The position numbers and the translations under genes were made by a program. From assembly GCA_004022145.1 (NCBI GenBank), contig RCNU01000001.1: a stretch of 64,000 bases of DNA, one strand, 5' to 3'. Of the stretch, positions 1 to 17,822 are shown in pieces. The stretch comes from Paecilomyces variotii (taxonomy: Eukaryota). Positions within the stretch are counted from its first letter, which is position 1, and every line of letters starts with the position of its first letter. The notes below the pieces were generated by a model. It had not been told where the DNA came from. It did not search any database and saw nothing but the letters and a program-made list of their open reading frames with translations.

Positions 1-872
1 AAAATAGTAAAACAAAAAAAAGACCCCCGGCGACGATCGATGTATGCACAAGTGGCGCGGGACGGCCCGAAAGAAGCACCTACGTTAGCCCCGGGATGTT
101 TGGACCGGGTTATAGTTACAGGAGTCAGGTGTATTTGTTTGTTGGCAGTGGGACCAAAATAGTCCCAGTTACCACAGATAGAATAGTGCACGACCTGAAG
201 TATATGTGGTATATGTCTGCGTGTGGTGTCCTTTTTTTGACGGAGCTCAGGAGCTCATGCATATTGCCTTGAGGGGGAAAGCTCGGCGTAACGGTAACGT
301 CCGTTGTGCTGATCATGTATTGTTCACGTTGTATTGGAATAGGATGTATAGGAATTGGATACTATAATGGTCTTTCAAAATCCTTTCCTAGTTCCCTCCC
401 TACCTTCATTCTTCAGCTCATTGGATTGAATAGAATTCAAGCGACGCAGCGTGGGTGATATGTAGTTTTGGAAATGATATGAAAGATCATTAATTGTGTG
501 TATATTCCTTCTGTTTCTTTGGCGTCAGCTAAGAAGCCCTCTGCTGCACAGACTAGATTCAGGATTCGTGAGGTTCACTCCGATCTCCGCGCGTACTCTG
601 TAGAGTTAGTACCACGGAACATTGTTTTCTATAAAGAACGGGGTTTTTTTTTTCCCGATGAAGAATGAAAGATAGAAAAAAACGGATCTAGGAAATGACA
701 GATACAGTCTCAATTTCCGTCGGTCGAGAGCCATGCTAGAAATCCAAGTGATAAATAACGCCGAATACAACATTTATATGCATACAGAGTGATGAGACGG
801 AAAGGAGAAGACCTCCCATGAGGTGGGAAGGTCGGAGCAGAAGAGACAGGACCAGATTTCAGAGGGCCCCAA

Positions 873-8866: not shown

Positions 8867-10113
8867 CTAACGCTGTCCGTTGTTGACAACAAACGGTCGT
8901 AGACCCATCAAGCCTAGCCAGAGGGCTTCCTCCGTGCGGATGGTGCGACTGCCCTGGCCTGGGAGGATGTTGATCCAGTAATCGAACAATTTCTCAGCGT
9001 CCGCGGGCATGATTCCTTTGTCTAGGAGCTCTTTGTCGGCTCGAACTGCCTCTTCGATGCCTGCTACGCCGCCGAATAGTACGAGGAGATGTTCGTATTT
9101 CGCTAAGGACGGCTCCGCCAGGACATCTGCGATGGATGCACCGCGCTCGGAGGTTCCGAACGAGAGGTCATAACCTCCATCGAACGGACACTCCGTGAAG
9201 ACTCCAGAGAGTGTGTGTGTTCGTCGAACGCTGTAGCCCCAGTAGTATCCGGCCTCCTCTCGCGGTGCGTTCGGGTCGACGGGCTCAGCGTCCTCGGGGG
9301 TATCTTTCGATGGAAACTTGACAGTCACGCGTGCCAGCTCTGGAATTTCCATCTCGTGCAGAACAACGGGCTGAGAGAGTCCTGTCTCGATGATGGTTGG
9401 TTTGGATACACCATCTATTTCACGCCCTCCCCCTCCCGGTTCGGGACTTCCTCCTCCTCCTCCCCCATCGTCGTCACTTTCTGGTACAACGACACCTTCA
9501 CGATATTCGCACCACTCATTGGCACGCAGGTGATGCGGCATATCCAAACTAGGAAGCACACCAGCCAGTTTCAGGTTCGGATGCATTGGAAAGAGGTGTT
9601 TGCGAAGGTAGGGTGGAGTCTCGAGATAGGCGAGAATGTGGGAGAGAAAATGGGACGGGTCCGTAAAGGCCGTGAATTGCTCTGTATGGAGATCATCGAC
9701 ACGAGTCTTGAAAGCTTTCGGGTCGTCGTCAAAGACAATAACTTCGTCGACACAGAAGACTGCGAGGGCACGTGCTATCATACCCGCCAGGTGTGTCTTC
9801 GTCTCCTGGGATTTCGCACTATTCAACTCATTAGAAACAGCTCGTATCCAAACGGGATTATATAGAAATCCAACTCTAAATCTATATATCCAACTCACTT
9901 GGCGATAATGCTGCCTGGTATCGCGACGCTCAGCGTATGCTTCCTTCCGCCGGTAGGGACAAAGAGCGCGGTCGGCTTCGCGGTGTGAAGATCCCCATTG
10001 CCCGAATCAATGGAGGTCTTGCGACGCTATGAAAAGAACACAATAATATTAGCAATTGACTCGAAGATAATATCCTCTAGCTGTTCGCATACCTTCGTTT
10101 TCGGAATAGCCAT
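8867..10113 (-). CDS. SPOUT-class RNA methyltransferase, DUF171 family (SPOUT1/C9orf114-like)
   Basis: Exons 10113-10093, 10026-9899 and 9818-8867; motifs TLSVAIPGSII, IARALAVFCVDEVIVF, YLETPPYLRK, GYYWGYSVR and PGQGSRTIRTEEA. Confidence 0.9.
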
Positions 10114-10689: not shown

Positions 10690-11493
10690 TTAATATGCCC
10701 CAACGGCAGTCGATCCCTCGATGCTTGTCTCTCCCGCCAGTTGCTTTGCGATCTTTACTCCGGCACTAGCTCCGATCCTATCCGCACCGGCTTGAAGCAT
10801 CCGTACACAGTCCTCTGCCGTACGCACTCCTCCACTAGCTTTGACCTTGCAGCCCTTTCCAAGTGCATCCACCGTAGCTCGCATGAGAGACACATTCTCA
10901 ACGCTAGCTCCAGAGCCATTAAATCCAGTGCTCGTTTTGACAAAATCTGCACCGGCAAGACAACTAATCACCGATCCAGCTATGATCTGATCTCTGTCCA
11001 GCTGGGACGTTTCGAGGATGACCTTGAGCCTGATAGGCGAAGGAGCCGCCTTGCGTACAGCGAGGATGTCTTCATAGACATCGACAAACTTCCCTTCCTT
11101 GAGAAGCGGATAGTTGAGTACCATGTCTAGTTCTGAAGCTCCCTGTCTCACAGCCTCGAGGGCCTCGTCCACTTTCTCTGCTGTCCTGTATGTCCCCTCA
11201 TGGAAACCGACAACTGCCGCGACGCACACCTCGGGCGTGTCTTTGAGGTTCTCTACGGCGCGGCGGACATGGTTGACGCGGACGCAAACAGAAGCGAATT
11301 TGTATTCTTTTGCCTCTTCGCAAAGAGTATCTATTTCAGACTCTGTTGCTGACAGGCCTAGGAGCGTGTGGTCAATAGTCCCAGGGATGGAAGATGGAGA
11401 AGGAGCAGGTCGGTTGGTGAATGTTGCTGGGAGGGAGTCCTTGATAGATGAAATCGTGGCAGCCCACTCTGCATTTGTCGTGGGAATCGACAT
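10690..11493 (-). CDS. deoC: Deoxyribose-phosphate aldolase (DERA/DeoC)
   Basis: Intronless ORF with IDHTLL, ELDMV, LKVILET, ADFVKTSTGF (Schiff-base Lys) and VKASGGVRT motifs. Confidence 0.95.
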   Translation of the reverse strand: MSIPTTNAEWAATISSIKDSLPATFTNRPAPSPSSIPGTIDHTLLGLSATESEIDTLCEEAKEYKFASVCVRVNHVRRAVENLKDTPEVCVAAVVGFHEGTYRTAEKVDEALEAVRQGASELDMVLNYPLLKEGKFVDVYEDILAVRKAAPSPIRLKVILETSQLDRDQIIAGSVISCLAGADFVKTSTGFNGSGASVENVSLMRATVDALGKGCKVKASGGVRTAEDCVRMLQAGADRIGASAGVKIAKQLAGETSIEGSTAVGAY

Positions 11494-12198
11494 TTCTTCG
11501 CGGTGTTATACTGAATTATGTCAGAAGTTGGAAAAGGATATAGAGGTTCAAGCGGTAGCTAGGCAAGACTGCATTGAATCACAAGGGGCCCGTGTAAGAC
11601 CAATGGCCACGGCAGGAAATAGGCGATCAATTATACATGCATAACATTGAATATAAACATAGCAGGATGTCATATATATACGACAAAAGAAAAGAATGGT
11701 ACAATAAGAACTGTGTCAACAGCATCAAAAATTGCGGGGAACCGACAACCTAGACCAACAATCCATGTACAGAACGTTGTGAAGACCCAACTGAGAGGAC
11801 TTACGAACCTAAAGTCTTCCGAGAAAAGTGCCCTGATGGCTAGTTCCTCTATTCATTCGAATTATGCTTCTTGCTCTGCGGTGTTGTTCCGTCCTGTTTG
11901 GTTTTGGTTCGCGTCTTCGAGTCCAGTTTGTCCCGCGCGAAGGTTGTCTGCGTGCCCCACACTTTCTCCCCGGTTCCTGAGAATCTCGGTCTATATATAC
12001 GCCAGATCAGACTGCCTCTATATTTTTGTGCTATAGATGAAATCGCAATGATAAGCGATTACGTTCCTAGTAAATACCTTAATGAAATTTATGATAGATG
12101 GTATCGATATGACTATTGTGTCTGCCGTTACTGTCTGTATAATCTCTGTATCAAATGACTCTTAGATACAAGGCAAACCTAGTCGACACAACTGGCGA

Positions 12199-13899
12199 CT
12201 ATATCTTTTGGGCCCTGCTGTTTCGGGATCCCCTCCCCAAAACAAATTCATACAACCCTTCTTCCAGCTCGATTAGTAGATCCACCACAATCGCATCCAT
12301 AGTTGGCAGGAGTTGTGTGAATAAAGTAGCGGCTATGCCACTTTCACGGTCAATCCACTGCGCACAAGCAATCGTTAGAATAACATCATGGCCTACATAT
12401 ATGATTTGCGACGAAGGCAGTGAAAGGTTATACTAACCCAATGAAGATTTGGCAATCCAGCCCAGCTGACTGTCCCTTTTCTCCTTCGACCTGGGATATC
12501 TCGCAGGGTAACGGTCCCAGCTAAGCAGTGATCCGCCTGGTCAACATCATCTGTACCCCTCGCTCCAAGAACTCGCCTCATTTGTCTCCCAGCGCCCACA
12601 AGCATAGATGAGCGAATAACGCGTGTCAATTGAGGTTGAAATAATACGTGCACACTGCGTTCAGTAAGAAGTCCCTTCCCTCCTTGGAGCAGTATGGTCA
12701 AGAGTTTGATGTAGTCGTCTGCTGTGCCGAAAAGGCCAATACCACCTAGGTCGTTCTTCCGTGGATACTCGAGCGTAACCCGACCTGGGCCAATGTAACT
12801 GTCGCCACTCTCTGTACGGATCCGCGCTCCCATTTCGAGTTGGGGAGGTAGTTTATGACGGTTCTTTTCGGGGTGGAATGTGGTGCACGTAGCACCTATT
12901 TTAGACCATATATTCGCCTTCATGTACTCTTCAAGAGTGGTATTTGTCTTCCGTTCGATCTGATAAGATTAGTTGAGTGCAATTATGTAAATGATAAGTG
13001 CATGGTATACTAACAATCACTCCTGCCCAGTCCAATCCACCTCCATATGCCCAAGATGTCCCCGGTTCGAAAATAAGAGGATGGTAATAACCGTCCTAGA
13101 TCCAGAATGACTTGTCATGACAAGAGCTGAATAAGTCACAGTAGGAGAATGAGGGAAGACATACCATGCTTCCGCAGAATGTGTGAGATTTCCGTTTGTT
13201 CGACTTAGACCATTGTTGCAAAAGAGGGCTTGAGTGATCATAACAAAGGCCTGAAGTGTGGCAGAGTAAATCCCTATATACGACCGGTAACATTATTAGC
13301 TCATGCTAAGCCATTCACTTGGAAACATATGCATGTAGCTTCTCATCTCCATGGTCTAATTACTTGATTGTTATTTCCGTCTTGGCTTTCTCCGTCCTGA
13401 AGCCAGGATATGGCTTCCCTCCTCCATTGGATCTGGATGATGGGACCCCATCGGAGCCCTCAGGGGCAGATCCACTAGAGGTGTCCTGGTCATAAAGCAA
13501 GATGTCGATGTCCCTCAACTCAGGAAGCGTATCGCAGACATTTTCATCTAAACTAGCAAGACCCTTTTCAACCAATTGCATCATCGCGACCGCAGTGACA
13601 AGTTTCGTCAGAGATGCTATCCAACATAGTGACGTTGGATGTACTGGGGTGTCATTTTTAGGATCGAGCTTTGACTTTCCAGCGGCGCGGCGGTATATGA
13701 TCTTTCCTGTTTATGATTAGCCGTTAAGCATATGATAGCCTACTATTCAGTAAGAACTGAAGACCACAGTCGAAGCCTTATGTTTTAGGAAGAAGGGGAA
13801 AGGGTTACCAGAATGATCCACGGCTATAAACACCGCTGCGTGAAGCGAACCAGTCGTGGGGTTTGTAAATTTATCCAATGTCGCGTCTAATCTCTCCAT
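12199..13899 (-). CDS. Beta-lactamase-family serine hydrolase / LovD-like transesterase, six exons
   Basis: The spliced frame is intact from ATG 13899 (MERLDATL) to TAG 12199. It carries SxxK (WIASLTK), LLCHTSG, FEPGTSWAYGGGLDWAG, SWAGLPNLHW|WIDR, and all introns are GT-AG. Confidence 0.88.
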
Positions 13900-14771
13900 T
13901 ATTTCGAAATGTATGTATGTTGTATGTTGGATGTATGTACCTCGCTTCAAGGATAATGACTCGTCGGTAGTAGTCCACCAGATTATATGATAGTGTTTAT
14001 TTTAATGTAACAACGCGCGAGAGTATACCATAGCAATGGTTTTCTTTGCGCTATTGAACTCGGCACTAGTTAACTAGGGTGCGGGCGCATCACAGATGTG
14101 CCTCGGTTATTACTTATAGACTGTGTTATCAGACTGGAGTGCTGATATTCAGCGTTGCTTTTATTCTGTCAGAGAGGTGCCTACAATACTATCGAACCAT
14201 ATTTCATGATATCAGCACACCGCCGACTTATCTTCCCTGTATCTTATTTTATGCTACCTCAGAAAACACTCTGTGATGCGATGCAGAAACAGAAGACCAA
14301 GGCCGTCGGTTTTTCTTGTGACTGTTACATATGCCAAGCTCGAGGGGAAGATATCATTTGGACAACTACAGTTTCGTATTTTTACAAAGCATCTGATCTT
14401 GACCCATGCATTGAGTAACTACCGCAAGACAAACAAACATCCTAACATATCTATTACAGGATGTTGTATTATATCAACGGTGCTCCTTCCAGTAGCTCTT
14501 GGGTTACATCGTTGAGACTAGGTAAATCCGAGCTTTTAATCTAGATAAAACAAACGAAGACAAGGAAACAGGATGCAGAAAAGTTCTCTCATGGCTTACT
14601 CGCTGGTTCACTCACTTCCATAGTCAGTACTTTCGGTCTGCAAAGTAGAAAGAATCAAATAGGACAATTTATAATAACTAAACGCATGGTATCCGTAACG
14701 TAGCCTTTCGCATGGAAAGATCAAACCCCCGCAGTATCCCCAACATGCCACATAATAGTTGCATTTCCCTC

Positions 14772-15328
14772 TTATCCACAGCTCTTGCACTCAGGGCCTC
14801 TGATATCATCAACTCTTCCAATTCTCCTGGGACCACCACCGCCACCACCAGGACCGCCGGGACCGCCTCCTCCAGAACTACCACCCCATCGCGGTCTGTT
14901 ATTGTAGGAATTGCCTGATCTTCGAATATTGAATTTCGACTCCTCTGCTGCTTTCAGGGGATCAAGCTAACACCAAACAAAACAAAGCGTCAGCTAATCA
15001 TTATCCCGGACATAACTATAAGACAAGACACGACAGGTATGTCGCTCGGAATTCACCACCGGATATCAAACTTACCGAAAACAACGTCACGAAATACAGT
15101 CCGAAGAAGAAGTAGACATCATCGATCCAACGGATAATGCGAGTAGTGAGCGGAGGACTGCGCAGTATATCGTTAGCTGTAAACTGTCCTACTATTCTCT
15201 GCGATGGGACCGCGCTTAGATGCGGTTTCTAGGCGACGATCCCGAGGAAAGCCAGCGGGGAGTCCGTACCTTTCTAGGACTTGTCCGTTGGAGATGTAGG
15301 GTTTTCCGGGTTTTCCGGGGGTCGACAT
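14772..15328 (-). CDS. Selenoprotein K (SelK/SelG family) cysteine homologue, 111 aa, three exons
   Basis: Exons 15328-15270, 15157-15076 and 14966-14772 with canonical splice sites give MSTPGKPGKPYISNGQVLESPPLTTRIIRWIDDVYFFFGLYFVTLFSLDPLKAAEESKFNIRRSGNSYNNRPRWGGSSGGGGPGGPGGGGGGPRRIGRVDDIRGPECKSCG*. The YISNGQVL start, hydrophobic helix and Gly-rich PRRxGR tail match SelK architecture. Confidence 0.9.
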
Positions 15329-15845
15329 CGTCGCGAAGACTATCTATGTTGATTTGGTAAAGAGATGAAGAGTATCCTGTTAGGATGTGTCTTGGGCGTT
15401 ATCTGGGGAAGGCGATGCAGGAGCCTGGCCAGCGGCGGACCCTCTTTGTTAAGGCATCATCAAAGGCCAAGCCTATTTGGGTTAGTCTGTTTTATTTCAG
15501 TACCAAGAGCTGCAGGGCCGGATTTCTTGATAGTGTTATTTTCTCTGAATTAGGAGATGACCTCGTAGGAGGAAAGATTACAATCTTGCAGCTATATCTG
15601 ATGTAATACCGGGGTGATGTGCCATTGACATTACACAGAGTTCATAATGAGCATTAGGTAGGTAGTTACAACTACTGGTATGGCGCCAGATAACCCGAGC
15701 TGACAATTCAGTGGGCGCCTTGCATGACATCTCAATTCATTAACTGACATTGTAGCAATAAGAACTCCACTTAATTCTGCGAATAAATACGCCTCAGATC
15801 AAATGAGATTCCAATACCTGATGGTAGAGTAGTAGACTCCCAGAA

Positions 15846-16116: not shown

Positions 16117-17822
16117 ATGTCGGAAGGCCCTCTCTTCAAGCCGGAGAAGGACTTCTCCAAGGATGCCGACAAGCTCATTCCAGAGGCGGAGGCGCTTGCA
16201 AAGGTGTGAAAAGCTTCTTCAGCTTCGAAGTCGTCCCCATACTGACCAGCCATGATCGGCAGACGGACGTGCAAGCAGCCATCGACAAGCTCTTGGTGTT
16301 GGAGAAGCAGGCAAGACAGGTAGGCTCTCTGAGAGCTGGTATAAACTGTAGAACAGTGGCTGACTATGCGACACGACAGGCTTCGGATCTTGCGACTACC
16401 TCTAGAATCCTCCTCACCATTGTTACGCTAAGCAAGGACTCGGGCGACTGGGGCTTATTAAACGACCAGGTTCTCTTGCTGTCCAAGAAGCATGGACAAC
16501 TCAAGCAGGCCATCACGAAGATGGTGCAGAAAGTGATGAGCTTCCTGGATGAGACACCTAATATGGAAGTGAAATTGTCCGTGATTGAAACCTTGCGGAC
16601 GGTGACGGAAGGAAAGGTTGGTTTACAGCTGCGGATCGGCGAAAGATCTCATGTCGCTAACAAGGATGATAGATTTTCGTTGAGGTCGAGAGAGCTCGAG
16701 TTACGCGTATCTTGTCCGACATTAAGAAGGCTCAAGGCGATTTGAATGCCGCTGCGGATATCCTTTGCGAGCTGCAGGTGGAGACCTTCGGGTCCATGAG
16801 CAGGAGAGAAAAGACGGAGTTCATCCTAGAGCAAGTGTCACTTTGCATTGAGCGAGGAGATTGGACACAGGCTGGAATCCTGAGTCGCAAGATCAACAAC
16901 AAGAAATATTTTGCCCGCAAACCCAAGAAGTCTCCCGAGCAGCTCGAGAAGGAAAAGAAGGAGGCTGAGGAAAAGGAAAAGACTCGCGAGCCTGATGAGC
17001 CGCCAGCAGAGGTTGACGAGGATGTAACGGATCTGAAGCTGCGTTACTATGAGCAGCAGATTATCCTTGCCAACCACGACCACAAGTACCTGGAGGTTTG
17101 CAAGCACTACCGGGAGGTTCTGGACACCGAGTCTGTCGAGAACAACCCGGAGCAGCTCCGTGCCGTAAGATTTCCCGCACTCTTGGGGTGACTTTCTCTC
17201 CGCTAACCATGGACCACAGGTTCTTGCGAGAATCATCTACTACATTGTGCTGTCTCCCTACGATAACGAGCAGTCCGATCTGCTGCACCGTATCCAACAA
17301 GATAGCCGCATCTCTGCGGTACCGGTCGAAGCCCGTCTGATCAAGCTGTTCACCATTTCTGAGCTGATGCGCTGGCCCATGGTTGCTGAACAGTTTGGTC
17401 CCCACCTGACCAGCACCGACGTCTTCAGCGCCCAGCCGAGTGGCACTTCCGATGACCAGGCCTACACGAGATGGCAGGACCTGCGGAAACGCGTGATCGA
17501 GCACAACGTGCGTGTAGTGGCCAAGTATTACACTCGCATCCAGATGGGTCGTCTGACGGAGCTTCTGGATCTGAACGAGGACGAGACGGAGAAGTACATC
17601 AGCGACCTGGTTACCTCCAAGACAATATACGCCAAGATCGACCGTCCTGCACGAGTGATCAACTTTGCCAAGCCCCGTGATGCGGATGATGTGCTGAACG
17701 AATGGAGCAGCGACATGAAGAACCTGCTGGATCTTCTGGAGCGCATCGACCACTTGATCACCAAGGAGGAGATGATGGCGCGGATTTTACCGACTCGAAG
17801 TGAGAAGGCGCGGGCTCACTAG
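16117..17822 (+). CDS. RPN5: 26S proteasome lid subunit Rpn5 (PCI domain)
   Basis: ATG 16117 (MSEGPLFKPEKDFS), four introns; motifs LEKQARQASD, KKHGQLKQAI, VTEGKIFVEVERAR, ELQVETFGSM, RVIEHNVRVVAKYYTRI and AKIDRPA. Confidence 0.96.

What the first reader, a model, noticed from the sequence alone, without database searches (positions are those of the whole stretch)
14772..15328. Hidden selenoprotein K homologue with a C-terminal CxxC in place of selenocysteine
Seen: a three-exon 111-aa gene missed by the ORF track, with all splice sites canonical and the frame conserved. Known: animal SelK begins MVYISNGQVL, has one membrane helix, a Gly/Pro/Arg-rich tail (PRRMGR..RGP) and Sec near the C-terminus, and acts in ERAD and palmitoylation; ascomycetes generally lack Sec machinery. 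Here YISNGQVL and PRRIGR..IRGP are retained, but the end is ECKSCG* (TGC/TGT codons, TAA stop). Inference: a Sec-free ER redox protein in which a CxxC pair may replace Sec. I know of little functional work on such proteins in filamentous fungi.
Basis: partly seen in the sequence, partly recalled or inferred. Interest (0 to 1): 0.72.

Follow-up and report, generated by a model that had tools for sequence, protein, structure and literature searches.

The report
Fungal selenoprotein K cysteine homologue
A small, expressed three-exon gene of the mould Paecilomyces variotii encodes an already catalogued, selenium-free relative of selenoprotein K that ends in two conserved cysteines; it is an ordinary family member whose chemistry nobody seems to have tested in fungi.

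Summary
On the minus strand, exons 15328-15270, 15157-15076 and 14966-14772 splice through two GT..AG introns into a 111-aa protein. It is identical to a public Paecilomyces variotii entry that UniRef names 'Selenoprotein K'. Transcript contigs from two studies carry both junctions, and a metatranscriptome carries one.

The protein scores 35.7 bits on Pfam SelK_SelG against a cut-off of 23.3. A profile of fungal relatives matches plant and insect SelK at 99.5% probability.

It has no in-frame TGA, stops at TAA, and no Rfam family, SECIS included, matches the locus. Its only cysteines are C107 and C110.

All 22 close relatives keep a C-terminal C-x-x-C. Of 110 fungal relatives without a thioredoxin domain, 104 keep at least two terminal cysteines. 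Land plants end in a similar motif, PACGSCC.

So this is the usual selenium-free form of a known, annotated family, not a hidden gene. A redox role for the cysteine pair is plausible but untested.

One side lead: other ascomycete classes fuse a thioredoxin domain to this module, and most of those fusions have lost the cysteine pair.

The parts
15329..15393 (-). 5' untranslated region (minimum extent)
   Evidence: The X1 contig reaches 15393. There is an in-frame stop upstream of the ATG.
15270..15328 (-). Exon 1 coding part, residues 1-19 plus two bases of codon 20. It holds the family's N-terminal motif YISNGQVL (residues 11-18, 15275-15298).
   Evidence: The motif aligns with the N-terminus of insect and plant SelK.
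15158..15269 (-). Intron 1, 112 nt, GT..AG with a CTAAC branch-point-like site
   Evidence: Skipped exactly in contigs of X1, X3 and X7.
15076..15157 (-). Exon 2, residues 20-47. It encodes the hydrophobic membrane helix (residues 23-47, 15076-15150).
   Evidence: AlphaFold2 helix 23-47 with pLDDT 82-89. Best 19-residue Kyte-Doolittle window 30-48, mean 1.36. Pfam profile positions 13-44.
14967..15075 (-). Intron 2, 109 nt, GT..AG with a CTGAC branch-point-like site
   Evidence: Skipped in contigs of X1 and X3, retained in one X7 contig.
14772..14966 (-). Exon 3 coding part, residues 48-111 plus the TAA stop. It encodes a Gly/Pro/Arg-rich tail predicted to be disordered.
   Evidence: 18 of 63 tail residues are Gly and pLDDT is mostly under 55.
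14775..14831 (-). Most conserved stretch of the protein: PRRIGRVDDIRGPECKSCG (residues 93-111). C107 is TGC at 14789-14787 and C110 is TGT at 14780-14778.
   Evidence: Invariant columns G97, V99, D100, D101, R103, G104, E106, C107 and C110 in 15 fungal sequences.
14400..14771 (-). 3' untranslated region. It is at least 372 nt and the X3 contig runs on beyond 14400.
   Evidence: No SECIS or any other Rfam match in 13800-15800 at E up to 10.

Best explanation
The locus is the Paecilomyces variotii gene for the cysteine form of the SelK/SelG family (Pfam PF10961). The protein is small and membrane-anchored. It has a short N-terminal YISNGQVL segment, one hydrophobic helix (residues 23-47) and a disordered Gly/Pro/Arg-rich tail. 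The tail ends in a conserved short linear motif, R-V-D-D-I-R-G-P-E-C-x-S-C.

Shown: the gene structure, its transcription, family membership, the absence of Sec decoding signals, and conservation of the terminal Cys pair.

Inferred: as for animal SELENOK, the helix holds the protein on the ER (possibly lipid-droplet) membrane with the tail in the cytosol. There the tail acts as a flexible, thiol-active arm in ER protein quality control or a related membrane process.

In this selenium-free lineage the reactive selenol is replaced by a vicinal dithiol. C110 lies at about the Sec position and C107 acts as the resolving partner. The pair can cycle between dithiol and intramolecular disulfide and be re-reduced by the thioredoxin system. 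I put identity at about 0.95 and this mechanism at about 0.45; the confidence given for this field is for the two taken together.
For: Gene and expression: the spliced product equals P0001, and both junctions are in transcript contigs of two studies. In the related strain of X7, the 3 differences inside the CDS (14955, 14958, 15314) are all third-position and synonymous by my reading. Against these stand 6 substitutions and one 1-base deletion in the 3'UTR, and 3 substitutions in intron 2.

Family: Pfam SelK_SelG scores 35.7 bits against a cut-off of 23.3, residues 10-104 on profile positions 1-80 of 86. 5 of 7 fungal relatives scanned also pass. hhalign of the fungal profile against the plant-plus-insect SelK profile gives 99.5%, E 1.2e-22, over 97 columns including the C-terminus.

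Architecture: one confident helix at 23-47 with the rest at low confidence. The tail is two-thirds G, P, S, R and N.

No Sec: Cys codons TGC and TGT, stop TAA, and no Rfam hit at all. Dikarya lost Sec (10.1101/314781, passages).

Cys pair: these are the only two Cys in the protein. They are invariant in 15 of 15 aligned relatives. C-x-x-C is at the end of 22 of 22 hits. Of 110 fungal relatives without Trx whose tail is present, 104 have at least 2 Cys in the last 14 residues, and 75 of those are [PA]-E-C-x-x-C. Land plants (9 of 9 fetched) end in P-A-C-G-S-C-C-G, and Pneumocystis ends in P-P-C-G-S/T-C-C.

Thiol-redox hint: 16 of 70 relatives scanned carry a true thioredoxin domain (PF00085, 52-102 bits) next to the SelK-like module. 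15 carry it N-terminal; in P0055 it lies after the module. Of the 13 with the Trx domain N-terminal and intact ends, 10 have lost the terminal Cys pair.

Animal precedent: SELENOK has Sec third from the C-terminus, forms a diselenide dimer, faces the cytosol and binds Derlin-1 and p97 (PMC9344019, passages).
Against: Nothing here measures localisation, topology, redox potential or partners.

The C-x-x-C lies in a disordered tail, not in a thioredoxin fold, and mammalian SELENOK is described as lacking a CXXU redox motif (PMC9344019).

In a cell-free DHHC6 assay a Cys at position 92 of SELENOK was no better than Ala (PMC5789314). A simple Sec-to-Cys swap is therefore not known to keep function.

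The spacing of the two Cys varies between lineages: C-x-x-C, C-x-x-x-x-C, C-x-x-x-C and CC. That is looser than a classical redox motif.

The hydrophobic window is marginal for a transmembrane helix (Kyte-Doolittle mean 1.36). A preprint argues the human helix is amphipathic and monotopic (10.1101/2021.05.15.444318), so the topology is open.

The thioredoxin-fusion argument rests on about two independent losses of the Cys pair: one in the Leotiomycetes+Sordariomycetes clade and one in Morchella. If the helix does span the membrane, the thioredoxin domain and the tail would lie on opposite sides.
Confidence: 0.5

Rival explanations
1. The terminal cysteines are lipid-acceptor (S-acylation) or acyl-relay sites rather than a redox pair. 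Acylation would pin the end of the tail to the membrane. Alternatively the pair would take part in acyl transfer with a DHHC enzyme, echoing the SELENOK-DHHC6 partnership.
For: Two or three clustered Cys at the extreme C-terminus next to a membrane anchor, with loose spacing (C-x-x-C, CC, C-C-G), are typical of S-acylated tails (general knowledge). Animal SELENOK acts with DHHC6, and its Sec is proposed to stabilise the acyl-enzyme intermediate (PMC5789314, abstract and passages).
Against: DHHC6 is described as the only human DHHC with an SH3 domain, and that domain mediates SELENOK binding (PMC5789314). I did not test whether any fungal DHHC has one. P0001 has only one P-x-x-P in its tail, at residues 83-86. 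The invariant acidic and basic context (V-D-D-I-R-G-P-E) is not needed for acylation. Thioredoxin-fused relatives that drop the Cys pair fit a redox exchange better.
Confidence: 0.2
2. The Cys pair is half of a metal site. Two copies of the protein would contribute four thiolates to bind Zn, Cu or an Fe-S cluster, so the motif would be structural or metal-sensing rather than redox-cycling.
For: Mammalian SELENOK is reported as a homodimer (PMC9344019, passage). C-x-x-C pairs in disordered tails often become ordered only on binding a metal (general knowledge).
Against: The spacing of the two Cys varies between lineages, which a fixed tetrahedral site would tolerate poorly. Nothing here gives evidence for a metal.
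Confidence: 0.1
3. The function lies in the helix and in the conserved R-x-G-R-V-D-D-I-R-G-P docking motif, as a pure adaptor or scaffold. The cysteines would be dispensable relics of the ancestral Sec site.
For: 10 of 13 thioredoxin-fused relatives, and 5 of 110 relatives without Trx, lack any terminal Cys yet keep the helix and a G-T-L-A-D-L-like remnant of the motif. The helix is the most conserved part of mammalian SELENOK (10.1101/2021.05.15.444318, passage).
Against: C107 and C110 are invariant across Eurotiomycetes, Lecanoromycetes, Dothideomycetes and Orbiliomycetes. A similar pair is kept in land plants. That would not be expected for relics after hundreds of millions of years.
Confidence: 0.15
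4. There is no real gene, and the three pieces are a chance in-frame arrangement or an annotation artefact.
For: No single ORF covers it. The exon pieces alone are below the Pfam threshold.
Against: Spliced transcript contigs exist in two studies plus one metatranscriptome. Relatives with 58-68% identity to exon 3 occur in nine named Eurotiales species. The full product scores above the Pfam cut-off.
Confidence: 0.01

Closest known systems
Animal selenoprotein K (SELENOK; Drosophila SelK/G-rich)
   Same: Same Pfam family. The profile-profile match to insect and plant members is 99.5%. It shares the same order of parts: an N-terminal Y-[IV]-x-N-G-x-V-L motif, one hydrophobic helix, a Gly/Pro/Arg-rich disordered tail, a basic R-x-G-R motif, and a reactive chalcogen residue two or three positions from the C-terminus (PMC9344019).
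   Different: It has Cys instead of Sec, and two of them. Human SELENOK has U92 in 94 residues and no Cys at all (PMC5789314; 10.1101/2021.05.15.444318). The fungal protein has a 9-residue N-terminal extension before the motif. Its stretch between the R-G-P motif and the end is only six residues, shorter than in the insect and plant sequences aligned. No SECIS is present. The SH3-dependent DHHC6 partnership was not tested, and fungal DHHC enzymes were not examined.
Land-plant SelK-like 'glycine-rich proteins' (the AT4G08230 group)
   Same: This is also a Sec-free lineage. The overall architecture is the same, and the end is nearly the same: L-P-A-C-G-S-C-C-G in plants against G-P-E-C-K-S-C-G here.
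   Different: Plants carry a third Cys (C-G-S-C-C), lack the V-D-D-I-R-G block in that exact form, and start directly with M-A-Y-V-E. In the papers my searches listed I saw no functional work on these proteins.
Cys homologues of SelK in insects and nematodes that lost Sec
   Same: Loss of Sec with retention of the gene as a Cys form is documented for D. willistoni, Tribolium and Bombyx (PMC2500217) and for nematodes (PMC2375036). The leaf beetle protein P0084 also ends with two Cys, G-G-C-A-G-G-S-C-G-M.
   Different: These are different lineages with a different spacing of the cysteines. In Drosophila a single Sec-to-Cys replacement is described.
Thioredoxin-SelK-like fusion proteins of Pezizomycetes, Leotiomycetes and Sordariomycetes (e.g. 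Tuber, Morchella, Hymenoscyphus, Lasiosphaeria; annotated 'thioredoxin-like protein')
   Same: Their C-terminal halves match the fungal SelK-like profile nearly end to end, with E 1e-20 to 1e-6. They share the helix core motif G-L-Y-F-x-S-L-F-S-L-D.
   Different: They carry an N-terminal W-C-G-P-C thioredoxin domain (PF00085), and 10 of 13 lack the terminal Cys pair. The P. variotii gene stands alone: tblastn finds no thioredoxin-coding sequence anywhere in the 64-kb window.
Selenoprotein S (SELENOS/VIMP)
   Same: It is described as the same organisational class: one membrane helix, a disordered Gly-rich cytosolic tail, and Sec second or third from the end, with a role in ERAD (PMC9344019).
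   Different: No sequence match was seen here. SELENOS has a coiled coil and a p97-binding VIM motif, which I did not look for and which the 111-aa protein has little room for.

Membership tests
SelK/SelG family (Pfam PF10961) | Whole-protein score above the curated Pfam gathering threshold | tested here: met
   35.7 bits against a cut-off of 23.3, E 1.4e-8, residues 10-104 on profile positions 1-80 of 86.
SelK/SelG family (Pfam PF10961) | Homology to bona fide animal and plant members, beyond the low-complexity Gly tail | tested here: met
   hhalign of the fungal profile against the plant-plus-insect profile gives 99.5%, E 1.2e-22, over 97 columns that start at the N-terminal motif and run through the helix.
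SelK/SelG family (Pfam PF10961) | N-terminal Y-[IV]-x-N-G-x-V-L motif followed by one hydrophobic helix | tested here: met
   YISNGQVL at residues 11-18. Helix 23-47 with pLDDT 82-89. The motif is not at the very N-terminus as in animals; 9 residues precede it.
SelK/SelG family (Pfam PF10961) | Gly/Pro/Arg-rich intrinsically disordered C-terminal tail | tested here: met
   In tail residues 49-111 there are 18 G, 8 R and 6 P among 63 residues. pLDDT is about 38-54.
Selenoproteins proper (Sec-containing SELENOK) | In-frame UGA decoded as Sec near the C-terminus, plus a SECIS element in the 3'UTR | tested here: not met
   There is no in-frame TGA. Cys is coded by TGC and TGT and the stop is TAA. 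No Rfam match of any family in 13800-15800 at E up to 10. It is a Cys homologue, not a selenoprotein.
Selenoproteins proper (Sec-containing SELENOK) | Positional equivalence of C110 (or C107) with Sec | tested here: inconclusive
   No Sec-bearing sequence was returned by any tool. The scarab and tephritid entries end in P-G-G-G, presumably cut at the UGA (inference). Anchored on the conserved Pro, C110 falls at or within one residue of that point.
SELENOK functional module (ERAD / DHHC6 cofactor) | ER membrane localisation with a cytosolic tail; binding to Derlin, p97/Cdc48 and SELENOS; SH3-mediated binding to DHHC6 | not testable with these tools
   Known only from the animal literature (PMC9344019, PMC5789314). 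Fungal partners were not examined.
Thioredoxin-fold C-x-x-C oxidoreductases | C-x-x-C at the N-terminus of a helix inside a thioredoxin fold | tested here: not met
   P0001 has no Pfam thioredoxin hit, and the motif lies in a low-confidence coil. Only the relatives of other classes have a separate thioredoxin domain.

The most novel reading that the evidence does not exclude
The terminal dithiol of Sec-free SelK proteins is a thioredoxin-coupled redox site, shared by ascomycetes and land plants as P-x-C-x-S-C. In Pezizomycetes, Leotiomycetes and Sordariomycetes the reductant was fused onto the same polypeptide. After that fusion the tail cysteines became dispensable and were lost.

If this is right, it has two consequences. 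First, the SelK helix must be monotopic, or the N-terminus cytosolic, so that thioredoxin domain and tail share a compartment. Second, tractable moulds (Aspergillus, Neurospora) would offer a selenium-free system in which to work out what the reactive residue of SelK does. That question is still open for the animal protein.
Probability: 0.3. Interest if true: 0.6.

Novelty: already known. Interest (0 to 1): 0.3.

Why it matters
Selenoprotein K is described as among the most widespread eukaryotic selenoproteins (PMC2375036) and one whose role is poorly understood (PMC9344019). Its Sec sits in a disordered tail with no recognisable active site.

This window adds no new kind of gene. The protein is already in public databases under the family's name. 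It does show that the selenium-free form in moulds keeps two cysteines under strong constraint, and that land plants keep almost the same ending. It also shows that other ascomycete classes fuse the module to thioredoxin.

Together these give a cheap genetic route to ask what the reactive residue does: C-to-S alleles and redox trapping in Aspergillus or Neurospora. My literature searches found no functional study of the fungal proteins. The library lacks many subscription papers, and Shchedrina et al. 2011, which defined the family, could not be read.

Tried and rejected
(1) A whole-genome search for PF10961 and Sec machinery was not possible, because no genome is held for this window. Absence of Sec machinery therefore rests on the literature for Dikarya.

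(2) A profile search of solved structures gave only Gly-linker noise, with a best E of 0.013 to a TFIID subunit's low-complexity stretch. There is no solved relative.

(3) A homodimer prediction (two copies) returned 'no answer', score 0.00. This is neither for nor against dimerisation.

(4) I looked for a thioredoxin or Rsm22 gene beside the P. variotii gene, as a possible relic of a fission. tblastn with 10 queries found only the SelK-like, DeoC and RNA-methyltransferase parts in the window.

(5) I looked for a proteasome-type promoter element (GGTGGCAAA, recalled) in the promoter shared with RPN5. There is none between 15329 and 16117. The window holds 6 matches at up to 1 mismatch, against 13 expected by chance.

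(6) Earlier findings of this scan, searched by words, sequence and place, gave nothing.

(7) A tree of the SelK-like module used 37 named rows that I picked out of 254 stored proteins. The thioredoxin-fused forms fall on one side of a branch, but that branch has a support of only 10. It cannot decide between one fusion and several, or between orthology and old paralogy.

(8) X6 contigs did not cover the gene. This says nothing about expression.

(9) Literature: PMC6627142 has no mention of SelK. PMC5364179 mentions only the mammalian protein. PMC7539508 gives no detail on SelK termini.

Full report
1. What is there

Reading the minus strand and splicing by coordinates gives three exons: 15328-15270, 15157-15076 and 14966-14772. 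The two introns are 112 and 109 nt. Both are GT..AG, with CTAAC and CTGAC sites 12-25 nt before the acceptor. The 336-nt CDS encodes 111 residues and stops at TAA. An in-frame stop lies upstream of the ATG.

The product is letter for letter P0001. NCBI lists that protein as a hypothetical protein of Paecilomyces variotii, and UniRef names it 'Selenoprotein K' of Byssochlamys spectabilis. Pfam PF10961 is precomputed for it. The gene is therefore not hidden from public annotation. It is invisible only to a stop-to-stop ORF list, where its pieces are 56-70 aa and individually below the Pfam threshold, at 15.7 and 7.9 bits.

2. Is it transcribed and spliced as proposed?

Four runs were laid on 14400-15700.
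- X1 and X3 come from two studies of the same organism label. Their label 'RNA' is a guess, but the contigs omit both introns exactly, which genomic DNA cannot do. Both carry joints 14966|15076 and 15157|15270 with 0 other letters.
- X7 is on record as a metatranscriptome and comes from a slightly different strain. It carries 15157|15270, plus one contig that reads through intron 2.
- X6 only covers 15502-15700.

The transcript starts at or beyond 15393. Its 3'UTR runs past 14400.

In the X7 strain the three differences inside the CDS (14955, 14958, 15314) are all synonymous third positions by my reading. The 3'UTR shows six substitutions and a 1-base deletion, and intron 2 shows three substitutions. 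This is a small but consistent sign of purifying selection.

3. Family

The full protein scores 35.7 bits on Pfam SelK_SelG (cut-off 23.3, E 1.4e-8). Of 7 fungal relatives scanned, 5 pass.

A profile of 15 fungal sequences (A1) matches a profile of 18 insect and plant SelK proteins (A2) with 99.5% probability and E 1.2e-22. The match runs over 97 columns, from the N-terminal motif through the helix to the C-terminus. The match therefore does not depend on the Gly-rich low-complexity region.

AlphaFold2 on A1 gives one confident helix (residues 23-47, pLDDT 82-89) and a tiny helix at 50-55. Everything else has low confidence. The tail (residues 49-111) is two-thirds G, P, S, R and N. No solved structure is related.

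The best 19-residue hydrophobic window (30-48) has a Kyte-Doolittle mean of only 1.36. This is marginal for a membrane-spanning helix. A preprint on human SELENOK argues that its helix (residues 20-42) is amphipathic and sits in one leaflet, and notes a lipid-droplet pool (10.1101/2021.05.15.444318, passages). A review gives the conventional picture of one transmembrane helix with the tail in the cytosol (PMC9344019, passages).

4. No selenocysteine

C107 is TGC, C110 is TGT, the stop is TAA, and there is no in-frame TGA. No Rfam family, SECIS included, matches 13800-15800 on either strand at E up to 10. No genome is held for this window, so I could not look for tRNA-Sec or the Sec factors. 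Published surveys place the loss of Sec at the base of Dikarya (10.1101/314781, passages; PMC2375036, passages).

5. The cysteine pair

C107 and C110 are the only cysteines in the protein.
- In A1 the invariant columns cluster at the end: G97, V99, D100, D101, R103, G104, E106, C107 and C110.
- All 22 hits of the exon-3 search end in C-x-x-C with 1-4 residues after it.
- A profile search of 1.84 billion representatives found 190 proteins at E up to 1e-3, of which 150 were listed.
- Among all stored proteins, 238 of 254 match the fungal profile. I set aside the plant and insect rows and 85 rows whose tail is missing or not reached. That left 110 proteins without a thioredoxin signature.
- Of these 110, 75 end in [PA]-E-C-x-x-C, 29 have another arrangement with at least 2 Cys, 1 has one Cys, and 5 have none. 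The other arrangements are C-x-x-x-x-C in Onygenales such as Blastomyces and Histoplasma, C-G-A-C-M-T, C-G-G-G-C-G and C-C-G.
- Named members span Eurotiomycetes, Lecanoromycetes, Dothideomycetes and Orbiliomycetes, plus Pneumocystis.

So 'two cysteines at the very end' is the conserved feature. The C-x-x-C spacing is the commonest form of it.

6. The same ending outside fungi

A search from a beetle SelK returned land-plant proteins named 'glycine-rich protein' or 'selenoprotein K'. All 9 that I fetched end in L/V-P-A-C-G-S-C-C-G. This is almost the fungal G-P-E-C-K-S-C-G, and like the Pneumocystis P-P-C-G-S/T-C-C.

Scarab and tephritid entries end in P-G-G-G. I infer, but did not verify, that they are cut at the Sec UGA. 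A leaf-beetle protein ends G-G-C-A-G-G-S-C-G-M.

Cys forms of SelK in Sec-less insects and nematodes are in print (PMC2500217; PMC2375036). Human SELENOK has U92 in 94 residues and no Cys (PMC5789314; 10.1101/2021.05.15.444318). No tool gave me a sequence with U written out. The statement that C110 stands at the Sec position is therefore good to about one residue only.

7. Thioredoxin fusions (outside the finding, but bearing on function)

16 of 70 relatives scanned with Pfam carry a genuine thioredoxin domain (PF00085, 52-102 bits) together with the SelK-like module. In 15 it is N-terminal, with W-C-G-P-C near residue 30 in the full-length ones. Two of the 16 are >1000-aa models merged with Rsm22. 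One (P0055) has the reverse order, with the thioredoxin domain after the module.

Of the other 13, 3 keep a terminal Cys pair: Rhizina, Tuber and one unnamed. The other 10 do not: Morchella, Hymenoscyphus, Niveomyces, Zalerion, Magnaporthiopsis, a xylariaceous species, Apiospora, Lasiosphaeria and two unnamed. These end in T-L-A-D-L-G-G-like sequences.

A quick tree of 37 named rows puts all fused forms on one side of a weakly supported branch (support 10). The Cys-less Leotiomycetes+Sordariomycetes group is well supported (96). The loss of the pair therefore amounts to about two events, not ten, and the association is suggestive only.

The fused proteins have no signal peptide-like start, so their thioredoxin domain should be cytosolic. 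That fits a shared compartment with the tail only if the helix does not span the membrane, or if it spans with the N-terminus inside the cytosol.

The P. variotii gene stands alone. tblastn with the fused proteins finds no thioredoxin or Rsm22 part anywhere in the window.

8. Surroundings

Upstream and divergent, about 725 bp from the transcript start, is RPN5, a 26S proteasome lid subunit (ATG at 16118; PSMD12/CSN4_N, PCI and RPN5_C domains).

Downstream on the same strand lie three genes: a beta-lactamase-family gene (12396-13710), a DeoC-type aldolase (10693-11505) and an RNA methyltransferase (8870-10006).

Merged gene models from other fungi join a SelK-like N-terminus to DeoC (P0039, P0040). 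One Pneumocystis entry joins it to a protein that matches the methyltransferase region (P0210). This suggests conserved neighbourhood.

9. Mechanism

Shown: an expressed gene for a Cys-form SelK-family protein with a strongly conserved terminal motif.

Inferred, at about 0.45: a membrane-anchored, disordered, thiol-active arm on the cytosolic face of the ER. Its C107/C110 pair would cycle between dithiol and disulfide in place of the selenol, and would be kept reduced by thioredoxin.

Rivals:
- S-acylation or acyl relay (0.2).
- A metal site formed by a dimer (0.1).
- A pure adaptor with dispensable cysteines (0.15).
- An artefact (0.01).

Against the favoured reading: Cys92 SELENOK behaved like Ala92 in a cell-free DHHC6 assay (PMC5789314), the Cys spacing varies, and the topology is unsettled. 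A homodimer prediction gave no verdict.

10. Verdict

It is wrong that the gene is hidden, and its claim about function is untested.

The protein is a catalogued member of a known family, and its ending is the common Sec-free form, shared with land plants. Interest is modest. The thioredoxin-fusion pattern and the plant-fungus shared tail are the parts worth a follow-up.

I found no functional study of the fungal proteins. These searches cover only the held library. Shchedrina et al. 2011, which defined the family, was not readable and may already describe the Cys forms.

Noticed in passing
relatives P0044, P0048, P0060, P0071, P0083, P0086, P0087, P0092, P0095, P0126, P0139, P0142, P0146 (no window coordinates): Pezizomycetes, Leotiomycetes and Sordariomycetes encode proteins of 160-265 aa in which a true thioredoxin domain is fused N-terminally to the SelK-like helix and tail. 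10 of these 13 have lost the terminal cysteine pair.
   Followed up: partly
relatives P0219-P0241 (land plants), P0088 and P0129 (Pneumocystis): Land-plant SelK-like 'glycine-rich proteins' end in P-A-C-G-S-C-C-G, and Pneumocystis proteins end in P-P-C-G-S/T-C-C-G-G. This is nearly the same ending as the P. variotii protein.
   Followed up: partly
window 14646-15099 (X7 contig) and protein P0081: One metatranscriptome contig reads through intron 2. A public 103-aa predicted protein (P0081) is the matching read-through product, which ends shortly after the helix and lacks the tail. This may be intron retention, pre-mRNA or DNA carry-over.
   Followed up: no
window 16118-17819 (+): The 26S proteasome lid subunit RPN5 is transcribed divergently from the SelK-like gene. 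About 725 bp lie between the SelK-like transcript start and the RPN5 ATG. No GGTGGCAAA-type element lies in that interval.
   Followed up: partly
window 10693-11505 (-) and 8870-10006 (-); proteins P0039, P0040, P0210: Gene models from other fungi merge a SelK-like N-terminus with a DeoC aldolase. One Pneumocystis entry merges it with a protein matching the RNA-methyltransferase region. This hints that the neighbourhood is conserved and that the small gene is often mis-merged.
   Followed up: no
window 12396-13710 (-): A beta-lactamase-family (PF00144) gene is split over at least two stop-to-stop ORFs, presumably by introns. It lies downstream of the SelK-like 3'UTR on the same strand.
   Followed up: no
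window 15502-15700: Metatranscriptome run X6 has two short contigs here, in the space between the SelK-like gene and RPN5. One of them has 5 mismatches. Their origin and strand are unknown.
   Followed up: no
relatives P0185, P0186, P0197, P0201 (Onygenales): Blastomyces, Helicocarpus, Paracoccidioides and Histoplasma keep the P-E-C but place the second Cys four residues on (C-G-S-G-G/S-C). The pair is kept while its spacing changes.
   Followed up: no
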